A stretch of DNA of 64,000 bases from a virus. Below, one piece after another: positions 27,822 to 29,419 of this stretch (its first letter is position 1; every line of letters starts with the position of its first letter). Location: IMG/VR virus record IMGVR_UViG_3300007106_000008, positions 1-64,000 of that record; one strand, given 5' to 3'. The notes beneath the pieces are model-generated. The model saw only the letters and a program-made list of their open reading frames with translations. It was not told where the DNA came from and made no database searches. Position numbers and translations under genes: made by a program.

Positions 27822-27854
27822 ATAAAAAAGCCCCCTAAGTAACTAGGGGGCTTA
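27821..27854 (-). terminator. Terminator with U-tract only in the minus direction
   Basis: aagcccccta-agtaac-tagggggctt 10-bp stem. On the - strand it is followed by ttttttattt. On the + strand only agtactg follows. Confidence 0.75.
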
Positions 27855-28041
27855 GTACTGTTTACCCATGAGATTGATGGTATCGCTACAAGGGTAATAT
27901 TTTCAGTTTGTATTTTTAAGTGTTAACTTCACTTACATACACCTTGTCGGGGGTATGAACTTATATTAGCAGCTACTGGACTGTCTTACCAGTTATGCCT
28001 TTAGGATGCTATGCAATCAGGACTATGTTACTGCTAAATAG

Positions 28042-28119
28042 ATTTGACGGCTGGTGGTCAATGCCCAGCTTACTCAGTGATAGGTAAGTATCTTCCAGTA
28101 ACCAACTGGTTCGTCAAAT
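28042..28119 (-). other. tRNA-sized cloverleaf-like module (non-canonical; not a functional tRNA by my folding)
   Basis: - strand reading: 8-bp closing stem ATTTGACG/CGTCAAAT, D-like arm CCAG-TTGGTTA-CTGG, central arm GATA-CTTACC-TATC, 3' arm GCTGG-(10 nt)-CCAGC abutting the closing stem. Total 78 nt. No TPsiC-type loop and a 6-nt central loop. Confidence 0.3.
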
Positions 28120-28241
28120 TGGGTGAACCTAGTGGGATTCTTACCCACACTCCTACGGTTAGAATAACAACCCACATTTGAGTGTTCCGTGAAGCGATTC
28201 TTAATAATCTAGTTCATTGTTATATGGTTAATTACTAATTT

Positions 28242-28316
28242 ACCATTTAATAGTAACTCTGTTGCTTAACTATACAGTCGATACCCATTTCTGGGGCAGA
28301 GCTACTATTAAATGGT
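28242..28316 (-). repeat. 20-bp inverted repeat (long hairpin, 35-nt loop)
   Basis: accatttaatagtaActctg (28242-28261) pairs with cagagCtactattaaatggt (28297-28316). The single odd position is A.C on the + strand but G.U on the - strand. Confidence 0.7.
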
Positions 28317-28323
28317 TCCAGGG

Positions 28324-28340
28324 GAAGGAATCGAACCACC
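28324..28340 (-). other. tRNA T-arm look-alike (GGTGG-TTCGATT-CCTTC on - strand)
   Basis: Contains GGTTCGATTCC, the canonical T-loop consensus. The stem has one U.U mismatch and I found no matching acceptor 5' strand. Confidence 0.35.
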
Positions 28341-28514
28341 CAATCAGGTCATGGCTACATCAACCAAACTCATTCGGGCTTAACCTATAATCAAGAGCTA
28401 GTATCTCACAAATTGACGTCACCTAAGAGTCGATGACCTGGAAAAGTTGCCAGGCTTACACTGGCTCCCATCTGTTTTTTAAGTCACTCAGATATCGTCT
28501 GGACTTAGACCATC

Positions 28515-28531
28515 TAGGGATTAGAACCCTA
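28515..28531 (-). other. tRNA T-arm look-alike (TAGGG-TTCTAAT-CCCTA on - strand)
   Basis: Perfect 5-bp stem with a 7-nt TTCNAAT-type loop. The putative acceptor strands GACCAGA/GATGGTC pair at only 5 of 7 positions, and the body is too short for D and anticodon arms. Confidence 0.3.
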
Positions 28532-28745
28532 ATCTCGGTAGTTAACCGCGCATTTGCCTCATGCTACTCTGGTCATTGATGATACCCCTTAGCTAATACA
28601 TGGTAGGGGTCACACCACGGTCGTTTGATTACCAGGACGACTCACTCCTGACTGACTTATAGGCTATTACGCCGCCATCAGAACAACATTATCGTTTGCA
28701 TTTATGTTAATGGTTCGTTTCTAAAAAACCGCATAATCGCTTACG

Positions 28746-28825
28746 AAAACTATCAAAGAGTACACTCGCTCGAATGGTTAAGAAGAAAGCTTTTCCATCT
28801 CCCCAGTAAATGTACTCTTTGATAG
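28746..28825 (-). terminator. 15-bp perfect inverted repeat with 46-nt loop, followed by TTTT on the - strand (internal terminator or processing hairpin)
   Basis: ctatcaaagagtaca (28750-28764) pairs with tgtactctttgatag (28811-28825). aaaa at 28746-28749 gives a U-tract only for - strand RNA. The loop is centred on an AAAGCTTT palindrome. Confidence 0.5.
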
Positions 28826-29012
28826 AATGTTTAATAGTGCAGGTGCAACCTGCGTACCTATCGGATGATGACAATAGGCGTGTTGGTGATGACGCCTCGT
28901 TTTAACCCCGTACCCTGCTGGATAACCATACTCATCTCTCCAGCTACACCCGCACCGTATCGCTACACCGGGATAGGTCTTGTTCATCTGATTATAGAGT
29001 TGCTGCTCTATG

Positions 29013-29054
29013 TATAATCACTAGCTTCACAGCGCAAGCACTCTAGTGATTACA
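29013..29054 (-). repeat. 10-12 bp hairpin
   Basis: taatcactag (29015-29024) pairs with ctagtgatta (29043-29052). The next pair is A.C on + but G.U on -, followed by one more Watson-Crick pair. Confidence 0.55.
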
Positions 29055-29140
29055 TTTGGTTGCTTCAACTGGGTTTTAACCCCAATATCGCTAATTAATA
29101 GTCAGGTACTTTACCCGTTAACTAACTCCCCAAGAACTAC

Positions 29141-29170
29141 TTTATACTAAAAACTTATCTGCTCAATCAA
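29141..29170 (-). promoter_or_regulatory. Sigma70-like promoter candidate reading into the ORF-free segment
   Basis: - strand TTGATT (29170-29165), 18-nt spacer, TATAAA (29146-29141). Begins immediately after the stop codon of the 29171..29419 gene. Confidence 0.35.
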
Positions 29171-29419
29171 TTAATTTTTACTTAATTCTTCATCTAGCAT
29201 AGTTCTGAATTGGTAAATAGTTACGGCAGGCAAATTATCATTACTAAGCCGAGAAAAGACTTGTTTGTTCTTCTCATTAGTACAACGAGCCGAAACTATT
29301 GCTGCACAACGTTTAACTGCTGAATCCACTGGTTCCTTGTACTTAATAGCCATCATCATAGCTAGCTCACAAGATACCAGTGAATCTAAGTATTCTATAC
29401 CTGCATTAACACTAAACAT
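29171..29419 (-). CDS. Hypothetical protein
   Basis: 82-aa ORF, last protein-coding gene before the ORF-free segment. Confidence 0.55.
   Translation of the reverse strand: MFSVNAGIEYLDSLVSCELAMMMAIKYKEPVDSAVKRCAAIVSARCTNEKNKQVFSRLSNDNLPAVTIYQFRTMLDEELSKN

What the first reader, a model, noticed from the sequence alone, without database searches (positions are those of the whole stretch)
28042..28531. tRNA-sized modules and T-arm look-alikes that fail as canonical tRNAs (degenerate tRNA cluster or tRNA mimics?)
Three tRNA-like elements are visible on the - strand.
- 28119-28042 folds into a 78-nt four-way cloverleaf. It has an 8-bp closing stem, a D-like arm CCAG-TTGGTTA-CTGG with the GG dinucleotide, a central arm, and a 3' arm abutting the closing stem.
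- 28340-28324 contains the canonical T-loop string GGTTCGATTCC.
- 28531-28515 is a perfect 5-bp stem with a 7-nt TTCTAAT loop, followed by a 7-nt strand that pairs at 5 of 7 positions with a candidate acceptor 5' strand.
None folds into a complete tRNA. The central loop has 6 nt, the T-loop is missing or mismatched, and the body is too short. They could be decaying tRNA genes. They could also be tRNA-like decoys or processing signals (RNase P / RNase Z sites) inside a longer RNA.
Basis: seen in the sequence. Interest (0 to 1): 0.6.

Follow-up and report, generated by a model that had tools for sequence, protein, structure and literature searches.

The report
tRNA-shaped modules in phage RNA array
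The three "failed tRNAs" are real tRNA-shaped but non-decoding modules of a 1.3-kb untranslated RNA-gene array in an N4-like coliphage, next to an unannotated RNA that carries a tmRNA-style degradation tag; they most likely serve as cutting signals or stable small RNAs, not as adaptors.

Summary
All three elements are present as described on the - strand. None scores as a tRNA with ARAGORN or the Rfam tRNA model.

They are not chance look-alikes. They lie in an ORF-free array (29170-27854, - strand, ending in a terminator). Related Schitoviridae hold 2-8 canonical tRNA genes in this array; this phage holds none.

- **Element 1 (28119-28042):** an orphan 78-nt four-way junction (z -3.3). It fills a cassette slot where relatives carry unrelated, equally cloverleaf-shaped inserts, or nothing.
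- **Element 2 (T-loop 28340-28324):** the T-arm of a ~130-nt acceptor/T-arm/ACCA RNA (28442-28313). Escherichia phage Jgk1 and Pectobacterium phages carry the same RNA. The window's copy has three structure-breaking lesions.
- **Element 3 (28575-28506):** an intact member of a family found in six other genomes. Its scaffold is near-invariant and its anticodon-like loop is hypervariable.

Directly upstream (28746-28585) lies a conserved, unannotated tmRNA-like RNA. It has the tag ANDNVVLMAA and covarying pseudoknots, but no tRNA-like half. It is also present in T1-like, P1-like and lambdoid phages. This scan has met that RNA before on other DNA.

Best reading: non-decoding tRNA-shaped processing or stable-RNA modules. 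Expression is untested.

The parts
27854..29170 (-). Untranslated RNA-gene array at the 3' end of the - strand operon. It holds all the parts listed below.
   Evidence: There is no ORF of 70 aa or more. Relatives carry tRNA genes at this position. 381 phage records match parts of it.
28042..28119 (-). Element 1: an orphan 78-nt module, a stem-closed four-way junction (cloverleaf-shaped).
   Evidence: Fold energy -24.1 kcal/mol, z -3.29. No homologue in 50,697 phage records or by a 19-mer probe of IMG/VR. It sits in a slot that is empty in VLCpiP4a and holds unrelated four-way-junction inserts of 71, 90 and 131 nt in KP8, L137 and Jgk1.
28313..28442 (-). Element 2 family: a ~130-nt tRNA-like RNA with an acceptor stem, a T-arm (28340-28324) and an encoded ACCA. 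This copy is degenerate.
   Evidence: Homologues are Jgk1 L147:1149-1277 and Possum L146:805-941, both with perfect 7-bp acceptor and 5-bp T stems. The window copy has U.U in the T stem, U.C at the acceptor base and a 7-nt deletion of one hairpin strand. Fold z-scores: +0.49 for the window, -2.15 for Jgk1, -5.10 for Possum.
28506..28575 (-). Element 3: a 70-nt tRNA-like module with a 5-bp acceptor-like stem, a D-like arm, a 3-bp anticodon-like stem with a 7-nt loop, and a T-arm. It has no CCA.
   Evidence: It is conserved in Jgk1, KKP 3715, Bas96, L129/L151 and L152. The stems are invariant. In the loop 6 of 7 columns vary, against 8 of 63 elsewhere (Fisher p 1.4e-4).
28585..28746 (-). tmRNA-like message RNA without a tRNA-like domain. 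It comprises an upstream helix, the tag frame 28699-28667 (ANDNVVLMAA, stop), a hairpin holding the stop codon (28681-28652), pseudoknot 28651-28620 and pseudoknot 28617-28585.
   Evidence: Rfam RF04321 scores 29.2 bits (gathering 47) and RF01849 21.5 bits. Tag variants always have 10 codons. The hairpin and both pseudoknots show compensatory changes.
28747..28832 (-). Long hairpin with a perfect 15-bp stem that precedes the tag RNA. The stem is conserved and the interior is variable.
   Evidence: fold z -5.61. Same kind as the GGTAAGAGCA...TGCTCTTTCC hairpins repeated in T1-like, lambdoid and P1-like arrays.
28447..28505 (-). Highly conserved two-hairpin block between element 3 and element 2.
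   Evidence: Its exact 20-mer occurs in 22 IMG/VR contigs, including contigs of 41-45 kb (N4-like genomes run about 70 kb). In L152 it follows element 3 with no tag RNA nearby.
28242..28316 (-). 20-bp hairpin whose 5' arm includes the ACCA of element 2's RNA.
   Evidence: fold z -4.62. Relatives have an equivalent hairpin based on CCAATTC...GAATTGG at the same place.
28122..28172 (-). Small tRNA-like 3' module: a hairpin, a T-like arm with loop TAAGAAT, then a 7-nt strand and ACC.
   Evidence: The T-like stem covaries: GCUGG/CCAGC, GCAGG/CCUGC and, in the window, GUGGG/CCCAC.
27960..28027 (-). Conserved Y-shaped structured module downstream of element 1.
   Evidence: RNAalifold on 6 phages finds 26 pairs (over the whole aligned stretch, including a second hairpin downstream of this module), 9 of them with compensatory changes.
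29056..29135 (-). Dead chimeric tRNA remnant: an Asn-like 5' part joined to an Ile-like T-arm, acceptor 3' strand and ACCA.
   Evidence: blastn against relatives' tRNA-Asn and Jgk1 tRNA-Ile. Not called by ARAGORN or Rfam.
27828..27853 (-). Intrinsic terminator that closes the array. The hairpin is shared with the convergent + strand genes.

Best explanation
The stretch 29170-27854 is read on the - strand as one untranslated precursor. It is an array of small structured RNA modules in the place where related N4-like phages keep their tRNA genes.

The three elements are three unrelated tRNA-shaped modules of that array. None of them decodes. What selection keeps in these families is the tRNA outline, above all the stacked acceptor/T-arm helix, and in element 2's family an encoded ACCA.

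- **Inferred mechanism:** this shape makes the modules substrates of the host's tRNA-processing enzymes. RNase P would cut at the 5' side. RNase E or Z, exonucleases and the CCA enzyme would act at the 3' side.
- **Inferred role of the hairpins:** the 15-20-bp hairpins between modules could be RNase III sites.
- **Inferred outcome:** the modules punctuate the precursor. This releases the neighbouring small RNAs (the tmRNA-like tag RNA and the conserved two-hairpin block). The modules probably also accumulate as stable small RNAs themselves, like T4 RNAC and RNAD.

In this phage, element 3 is an intact family member. Element 2 is a decaying copy. Element 1 is a lineage-specific cassette of the same shape class.

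**Shown:** the structures, their homologues, the covariation, the cassette turnover and the absence of tRNA identity. **Inferred:** transcription, cleavage and any function beyond processing.
For: **Context**
- Relatives carry 2-8 acceptor/T-arm/NCCA modules here, most of them true tRNAs. The window has one imperfect module.
- The array ends in a terminator.

**Selection on shape, not on decoding**
- Element 2's family and the related 66/67-nt and 124-nt ACCA families keep 7-bp acceptor stems and 5-bp T stems through compensatory changes. Examples are UCCGGUG/CGCCGGA versus UCCAGGA/UCCUGGA versus UCCAGGG/CCCUGGA; UACUGGU/ACCAGUA versus UACCAGU/ACUGGUA versus UAUCAGU/ACUGAUA; and T stems UCUGG/CCAGA versus GUUGG/CCAAC.
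- Meanwhile their middles are replaced by 30-100 nt of unrelated sequence.
- Element 3's 63 scaffold columns are near-invariant in phages related to two different genera, Gamaleyavirus and Cbunavirus. Six of its 7 loop columns vary.

**Punctuation layout**
- The tag RNA is bounded upstream by a tRNA (VLCpiP4a tRNA-Gly, Jgk1 tRNA-Ile) plus a long hairpin. Downstream it is bounded by a tRNA-like insert, which is element 3, an ECBP1-type pseudo-tRNA, or a 124-nt ACCA module in KP8.
- In L152 the order is tRNA-Asn, element 3, two-hairpin block, tRNA-Gln.

**Cassette behaviour**
- One slot is empty in one phage and holds four different stem-closed four-way junctions in others.
- Module order differs between the window and Jgk1.

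**Precedents**
- T4 RNAC and RNAD are expressed small RNAs of unknown function (PMC9697503). That they lie in the T4 tRNA region is from my own knowledge.
- Plant mitochondrial t-elements are non-canonical cloverleaves with the GGTTCRANYCC motif that direct RNase P/Z cuts (PMC1920247).
Against: - There are no RNA data.
- Element 3's stems show no covariation at all. Its cloverleaf is therefore inferred from invariance and tRNA-like layout only. Two of its five T-stem pairs form only in the window.
- Elements 1 and 3 lack CCA and have non-standard loops.
- Element 1 has no homologue, so selection on it cannot be tested.
- Element 2's copy here is damaged, so at least one module is dispensable in this phage.
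- Near-invariance of element 3 across genera could reflect recent horizontal transfer rather than purifying selection.
Confidence: 0.55

Rival explanations
1. The elements are neutral wreckage. They are remnants of tRNA genes that this phage lineage no longer needs, and they are drifting towards randomness with no function of their own.
For: - The window has no canonical tRNA, while relatives have 2-6.
- A clear chimeric dead tRNA lies at 29135-29056.
- Element 2 has a 7-nt deletion and two stem mismatches relative to Jgk1 and Possum, and its fold has z +0.49.
- No tRNA-model score above background is found.
Against: - Element 3's scaffold has about 95% column identity across phages whose virion RNA polymerase genes are only about 76-80% identical, and its changes are concentrated in the loop.
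- Acceptor and T stems of element 2's family covary across genera.
- Element 1 is an insertion relative to an empty site, not a residue of decay, and it folds far better than shuffles.
- The intact homologues are themselves non-canonical (about 130 nt), so they are not decayed tRNAs.
Confidence: 0.2
2. The elements are decoys or sponges. tRNA-shaped RNAs would soak up host tRNA-directed defence nucleases (PrrC/RloC-type anticodon nucleases, PARIS AriB and the like) or other tRNA-binding factors. The variable anticodon-like loop would track the host's specificity.
For: - Element 3's loop shows five variants in six genomes (UUAACUA, UUAGCUG, CUGAUCA, UUGGCCA, UUGAUCA).
- A U at the U33-like position is invariant, on a near-invariant scaffold.
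- The locus turns over by cassettes, as counter-defence loci often do.
Against: - Loop variation is equally expected if the loop is simply unconstrained.
- The anticodon-like stem has only 3 bp, and a purine-purine mismatch always flanks it.
- Element 1's central loop has 8 nt.
- No defence link has been tested.
- The 66/67-nt family shows the opposite pattern: a near-invariant loop GUGCAC(A) (one A-to-C change, in Bas96) with covarying stems.
Confidence: 0.13
3. The elements supply the acceptor half of a split tmRNA. One of the tRNA-like modules (element 3, or the ACCA module that holds element 2) would be charged and would work with the neighbouring tmRNA-like tag RNA as a new two-piece tmRNA.
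For: - The tag RNA lacks any tRNA-like domain, yet its 10-codon frame is kept at the peptide level.
- Element 3 abuts it, and the ACCA module lies about 145 nt downstream.
- Rfam's permuted-tmRNA model reaches its threshold in VLCpiP4a only by borrowing a neighbouring tRNA's T-arm.
Against: - No module has the G3.U70 alanine determinant. Element 2's family has U1-A72, C2-G71, C3-G70. Element 3 has A2-U71, C3-G70 and no CCA.
- Both acceptor strands lie in the same module, unlike known two-piece tmRNAs.
- Element 3 occurs without the tag RNA (L152).
- The tag RNA occurs without either module in lambdoid, P1-like and T1-like phages.
- No complementarity linking the pieces was seen by eye. No systematic pairing search between the tag RNA and these modules was run.
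Confidence: 0.07

Closest known systems
Phage T4 small RNAs RNAC (species 1) and RNAD (species 2)
   Same: They are non-decoding small RNAs encoded with a phage's tRNA genes. They are expressed, and their function is still unknown (PMC9697503). From my own knowledge, they are matured by the tRNA-processing machinery.
   Different: There is no sequence relationship. Here there are many module families (66/67, 70, 78, 124 and ~130 nt) that are exchanged like cassettes between phages. Expression is untested.
Plant mitochondrial t-elements (also mascRNA-type tRNA-like processing signals)
   Same: They are non-canonical cloverleaves that keep the GGTTCRANYCC T-arm motif and an acceptor-like stem. 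They sit inside longer transcripts, where they direct RNase P/Z cleavage (PMC1920247). Element 2 has the exact motif and element 3 has it with one mismatch.
   Different: They occur in a different domain of life and with different enzymes. In the plant case the flanks are mRNAs, whereas here they are other small RNAs. Cleavage is not shown here.
Canonical phage tRNA clusters of Schitoviridae (ECBP1, KP8, VLCpiP4a, Jgk1)
   Same: Same genomic position, strand and flanking conserved blocks.
   Different: The window has no tRNA that ARAGORN or Rfam accepts. The three elements lack a standard anticodon arm.
tmRNA (SsrA): one-piece RF00023 and permuted two-piece RF04321/RF01849
   Same: This comparison concerns the neighbouring RNA (28746-28585). 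It has a GCA resume codon, a 10-codon tag of the ANDENYALAA type ending in AA, a stop codon in a hairpin, and H-type pseudoknots after it.
   Different: It has no tRNA-like domain, no G3.U70 and no CCA-ended acceptor of its own. It scores below the Rfam thresholds (29.2 against 47) and ARAGORN does not call it. The three elements of the finding are not parts of a tmRNA.

Membership tests
Canonical tRNA (Rfam RF00005 / ARAGORN) | Covariance-model score at or above the gathering score (29 bits), or an ARAGORN call | tested here: not met
   ARAGORN finds 0 genes in 64 kb. No RF00005 match appears, even at E <= 10, in 27960-28900. Relatives' true tRNAs score 48-67 bits in the same tool.
Canonical tRNA (Rfam RF00005 / ARAGORN) | A 5-bp anticodon stem with a 7-nt loop (U33, purine 37), and a 7-nt T-loop | tested here: not met
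   Element 1 has an 8-nt central loop and a 10-nt 3' loop. Element 2's RNA has about 95 nt in place of the D and anticodon arms. Element 3 has a 3-bp stem, although its loop is 7 nt with a U at position 2.
Decaying pseudogene of a structured RNA | Structure-breaking lesions relative to intact homologues | tested here: met
   Met for element 2 only: a 7-nt deletion, U.U in the T stem and U.C in the acceptor stem, compared with Jgk1 and Possum. Not met for element 3, whose T stem pairs better than in relatives. Untestable for element 1, which has no homologue.
tRNA-like processing signal (t-element type) | Acceptor-like stem stacked on a T-arm with the GGTTCRANYCC motif, embedded in a longer transcript | tested here: met
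   Element 2 has the exact motif, a 6/7 acceptor stem and ACCA. Element 3 has one mismatch in the motif and a 5/7 acceptor stem. Element 1 has the stems but not the motif.
tRNA-like processing signal (t-element type) | RNA ends generated by RNase P/Z at the element's borders | not testable with these tools
No RNA data for this phage were found.
T4 RNAC/RNAD-type phage small stable RNA | Encoded within the phage tRNA cluster and not a decoder | tested here: met
   The position is equivalent to relatives' tRNA clusters. No tRNA identity is present.
T4 RNAC/RNAD-type phage small stable RNA | Accumulates as a discrete stable RNA during infection | not testable with these tools
   No expression data were available.
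tmRNA (RF00023 / RF04321), for the adjacent RNA and as a possible role of the elements | Tag reading frame with a resume codon, followed by pseudoknots | tested here: met
   The frame 28699-28667 encodes ANDNVVLMAA and a stop. There are 14 tag variants (13 plus the P1-like one read), all of 10 codons. The hairpin and two pseudoknots show compensatory pairs.
tmRNA (RF00023 / RF04321), for the adjacent RNA and as a possible role of the elements | tRNA-like domain with a G3.U70 acceptor stem, T-arm and CCA, joined or base-paired to the message part | tested here: not met
   The RNA has no such domain. The candidate neighbours have C3-G70. The permuted reading fails: the acceptor cannot form in VLCpiP4a or in the window. 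Scores are 29.2 against a gathering score of 47 for RF04321, and only 7.1 bits for RF00023.

The most novel reading that the evidence does not exclude
Enterobacterial phages maintain a toolkit of exchangeable, non-decoding tRNA-shaped RNAs. At least one family (element 3: fixed scaffold, U33-like base, hypervariable anticodon-like triplet) would act as a programmable decoy or adaptor. It could work against host anticodon nucleases. Alternatively it could be the missing charged partner that lets the tRNA-less, tmRNA-like tag RNA next to it rewrite the tags that the host puts on stalled proteins.
Probability: 0.1. Interest if true: 0.85.

Novelty: new variant of a known kind. Interest (0 to 1): 0.6.

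Why it matters
- **Annotation.** Phage tRNA clusters are usually annotated only for what tRNAscan-SE or ARAGORN accept. The rest is left blank or filled with spurious tiny ORFs; Bas96 lists about 11 across this array.
- **What the blank space holds.** In N4-like coliphages it is a set of conserved, covarying, cassette-like tRNA-shaped RNAs. Next to them sits a widespread, unannotated tmRNA-like tag RNA. That RNA matches 381 phage records with the N4-like query and 176 with a T1-like query. It also matches 590 of 5,426 complete E. coli genomes, mostly on plasmids; the one inspected (L143) is P1-like.
- **If the modules are processing signals.** They would show a tRNA-punctuation logic for phage small-RNA operons.
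- **If they are decoys or acceptor partners.** They would bear on phage-host conflicts over tRNAs and ribosome rescue.
- **Testability.** These are cultivable coliphages, so every step can be tested at the bench.

Tried and rejected
- **Canonical tRNA or tmRNA calls.** ARAGORN and Rfam at gathering thresholds returned nothing.
- **Permuted (two-piece) tmRNA gene.**
  - The Rfam RF04321 alignment in VLCpiP4a borrows the T-arm of an ordinary upstream tRNA-Gly.
  - The proposed acceptor (GGGGAGC with GCUCCAA) does not pair at positions 1-2 and has G3-C70.
  - The window lacks even that T-arm. Rejected.
- **One-piece tmRNA with element 2's ACCA end as its 3' end.** The complementary 5' strand lies downstream of the tag, so element 2 closes its own module. 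Rejected.
- **Earlier notes' idea that the tag RNA's front is antisense to host tmRNA.**
  - The best match is 12 nt (window 28733-28722 against E. coli tmRNA 68-79).
  - 54 of 100 shuffles do as well.
  - The match is interrupted in T1-like and P1-like members and absent in the more divergent ones. This gives no support here.
  - RNAduplex on the full lengths was uninformative.
- **Homologues of element 1.** blastn against phages found none. A 19-mer probe of IMG/VR hit only a coding region by chance.
- **Covariation test of element 3's cloverleaf.** All stems are invariant, so the test is uninformative.
- **Pattern scans for more element 3 variants.** One further IMG/VR contig and two metagenome contigs were found.
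- **Literature search.** No paper in the held library describes a tmRNA-like RNA or these tRNA-like modules in N4-like phages. The KP8 paper reports only "six tRNA genes", four of them identified.
Full report
**Setting**

The window is an N4-like phage. It has a 3,449-aa virion RNA polymerase ORF. Its nearest records are Shigella virus Moo19, Jgk1, Bp4 and ECBP1, at about 76-80% identity in that gene. Relatives are classified as Schitoviridae, Enquatrovirinae.

Between the last - strand ORF (29171-29419) and a strong terminator (27853-27828) lie about 1.3 kb with no ORF of 70 aa or more. In relatives this is the tRNA cluster:
- ECBP1 has 3 ARAGORN calls, KP8 has 4, VLCpiP4a has 5 and Jgk1 has 5.
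- The window has none and no Rfam family at gathering thresholds.

**The observation**

- **Element 1 (28119-28042).** It folds into the described four-way junction: an 8-bp closing stem, a CCAGU/ACUGG arm with a GG-containing loop, a 6-bp central arm and a 5-bp 3' arm abutting the closing stem. Free energy is -24.1 kcal/mol and z = -3.29, with no shuffle of 200 as stable.
- **Element 2.** Its GGTTCGATTCC is the only exact GGTTCRANTCC in 64 kb. Element 3 carries the only other near-match inside the array.
- **Element 3.** It has the perfect 5-bp/7-nt hairpin, and its acceptor strands pair at 5 of 7 positions.
- **tRNA model.** No tRNA-model match appears, even at E <= 10, when the region is scanned in short pieces.
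- **Fold energy.** Taken alone, elements 2 and 3 fold no better than shuffles (z +0.49 and -0.61).

**What each element is**

*Element 2*
- It is the T-arm of a larger unit, 28442-28313. TCCAGGT pairs with CCCTGGA, which is followed by ACCA.
- The same unit occurs in Escherichia phage Jgk1 (129 nt) and in Pectobacterium phages Possum, Horatius and Arno152 (137 nt).
- There it has perfect 7-bp acceptor stems (UCCAGGA/UCCUGGA, UCCAGGG/CCCUGGA) and 5-bp T stems. It folds as a four-way junction with z -2.15 and -5.10.
- The alignment shows that the window copy lacks 7 nt, the 5' strand of a UCAGG...CCUGA hairpin. It also has U.U in the T stem and U.C at the base of the acceptor stem.
- It is therefore a damaged copy of a non-canonical, ~130-nt tRNA-like RNA.
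- At or near the same place other relatives carry a 66/67-nt D-arm-less tRNA-like RNA (UCCGGUG...CGCCGGA-ACCA) and a 124-nt one (UACYRGU...ACYRGUA-ACCA). Their acceptor and T stems change by compensatory pairs.

*Element 3 (28575-28506)*
- It has homologues in Jgk1, KKP 3715, Bas96, IMG/VR contig L129 and metagenome contigs L151 and L152.
- L152's flanks resemble Enterobacter and Pectobacterium Cbunavirus-like phages, so the family crosses genera.
- Mean column identity is 95%.
- Variation is concentrated in the 7-nt anticodon-like loop: 6 of 7 columns vary, against 8 of 63 elsewhere (Fisher p 1.4e-4). Among relatives alone the figures are 6 of 7 against 3 of 63.
- The second loop base, the U33 position, never changes.
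- The stems are invariant, so covariation says nothing for or against the cloverleaf.

*Element 1*
- It has no homologue in 50,697 phage records or by probe.
- It occupies the spacer after a small tRNA-like module that ends ...GGTTCACC.
- That spacer is empty in VLCpiP4a. It holds unrelated inserts of 71 nt (KP8), 90 nt ending in ACCA (L137) and 131 nt (Jgk1).
- All of these inserts fold as stem-closed four-way junctions.
- Element 1 is thus a lineage-specific cassette of the same shape class.

**The rest of the array**

Upstream of element 3 lies a conserved RNA (28746-28585) that Rfam aligns, below threshold, to permuted and alpha-proteobacterial tmRNA (29.2 and 21.5 bits).
- It carries GCA-AAC-GAT-... 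= ANDNVVLMAA-stop (28699-28667).
- In 36 distinct relatives the frame always has 10 codons. Examples of the tags are ANDDVVLMAA, ANEEMYLAVA, ANDEQFLAVA and ANDTQYLAVA, and ANDDLMMVAA in P1-like plasmids.
- The hairpin that holds the stop codon and two H-type pseudoknots are kept by compensatory changes. The wobble base of the penultimate Ala codon covaries with its pairing partner (GC, AU, UA, CG).
- No tRNA-like domain belongs to this RNA.
- The family is found in four phage groups:
  - N4-like phages;
  - T1-like phages (176 records);
  - P1-like phage-plasmids, between dmt and tRNA-Asn;
  - lambdoid prophages, between Q and the holin gene.
- It matches 590 of 5,426 E. coli genomes, always unannotated.
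- This scan has reported the same RNA on other genomes. No paper describing it was found.

Other modules in the array are these:
- a 15-bp-stem hairpin (28832-28747);
- a very conserved two-hairpin block (28505-28447);
- a 20-bp hairpin that includes element 2's ACCA;
- a TAAGAAT-loop module with a covarying stem;
- a Y-shaped module (whose alignment has 9 compensatory pairs in all);
- a dead chimeric tRNA (29135-29056).

Module order differs between the window and Jgk1.

**Mechanism**

What is conserved in these families is the tRNA outline, not a decoding function. The acceptor and T stems covary, an ACCA is encoded, and the middles or loops are free. tRNAs or tRNA-like modules, together with long hairpins, flank the non-tRNA small RNAs.

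The simplest reading has two parts.
- The modules make the precursor a substrate for RNase P and the 3' tRNA-processing enzymes, with RNase III acting at the long hairpins. This would release the neighbouring RNAs.
- The modules may also persist as stable RNAs themselves. T4 RNAC/RNAD (PMC9697503) and plant mitochondrial t-elements (PMC1920247) do so.

This is an inference; no RNA data could be obtained.

The rival readings are pure decay, decoys for tRNA-directed defences, and an acceptor partner for the tag RNA. Each is weighed above. The last is disfavoured because G3.U70 is absent and because the parts occur independently of each other.

**Verdict**

The elements are neither tRNAs nor, as a group, simply dying tRNAs.
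- Element 3 is an intact, conserved tRNA-like module.
- Element 2 is a decaying copy of a ~130-nt ACCA-ended tRNA-like RNA.
- Element 1 is an orphan cloverleaf cassette.

All three lie in a phage RNA-gene array beside a tmRNA-like tag RNA. They are a new variant of a known kind, namely non-decoding RNAs of phage tRNA clusters.

Noticed in passing
window 28585-28746 (-): An unannotated tmRNA-like message RNA without a tRNA-like half. Its tag is ANDNVVLMAA, and its stop-codon hairpin and two pseudoknots covary. It is shared with T1-like, P1-like and lambdoid phages and matches 590 of 5,426 E. coli genomes.
   Followed up: partly
window 28447-28505 (-); L152:1779-1850: A two-hairpin block that is among the most conserved pieces of the array. 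Its exact 20-mer occurs in 22 IMG/VR contigs, including 41-45-kb phages. In L152 it sits between element 3 and tRNA-Gln with no tag RNA nearby, so it looks like an independent small RNA. Its second hairpin covaries (GCCAGG/CCUGGC against GGCAGG/CCUGCC).
   Followed up: partly
window 28747-28832 (-); L027, L031, L039, L128, L136, L143, L144: Long hairpins with a conserved stem sequence (AAGAGYA...TRCTCTT, extended to CAACAGGTAAGAGCA...TGCTCTTTCCGTTG in T1-like, lambdoid and P1-like phages) and hypervariable interiors. They are repeated several times per array. They could be RNase III sites or carriers of variable inserts.
   Followed up: no
L003:1748-1814, L001:1539-1604 and relatives: The 66/67-nt D-arm-less tRNA-like RNA of relatives has a near-invariant, self-complementary loop GUGCAC(A) (Bas96 has one A-to-C change) on a covarying 5-bp stem. 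This is the opposite pattern to element 3. The loop could be a kissing-loop or an anticodon-GCA mimic.
   Followed up: no
window 29056-29135 (-): A chimeric dead tRNA. Its 5' part resembles relatives' tRNA-Asn (loop CUAUUAA, as in Possum tRNA-Asn(att)). Its 3' end is 92% identical to the T-arm, acceptor strand and ACCA of Jgk1 tRNA-Ile. The T-loop is mutated to TTAAAAC.
   Followed up: partly
window 28835-28904 (-) vs L147:1080-1145: A two-hairpin segment lies upstream of the tag RNA in the window but downstream of the two-hairpin block in Jgk1. Modules are therefore shuffled in order between close relatives.
   Followed up: no
L150 (Bas96 record PQ850623.1), locus 469-2860: The public record annotates about 11 hypothetical proteins of 30-70 aa, on both strands, across the RNA array. 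Given the covarying RNA structures and cassette turnover, these are probably spurious.
   Followed up: no
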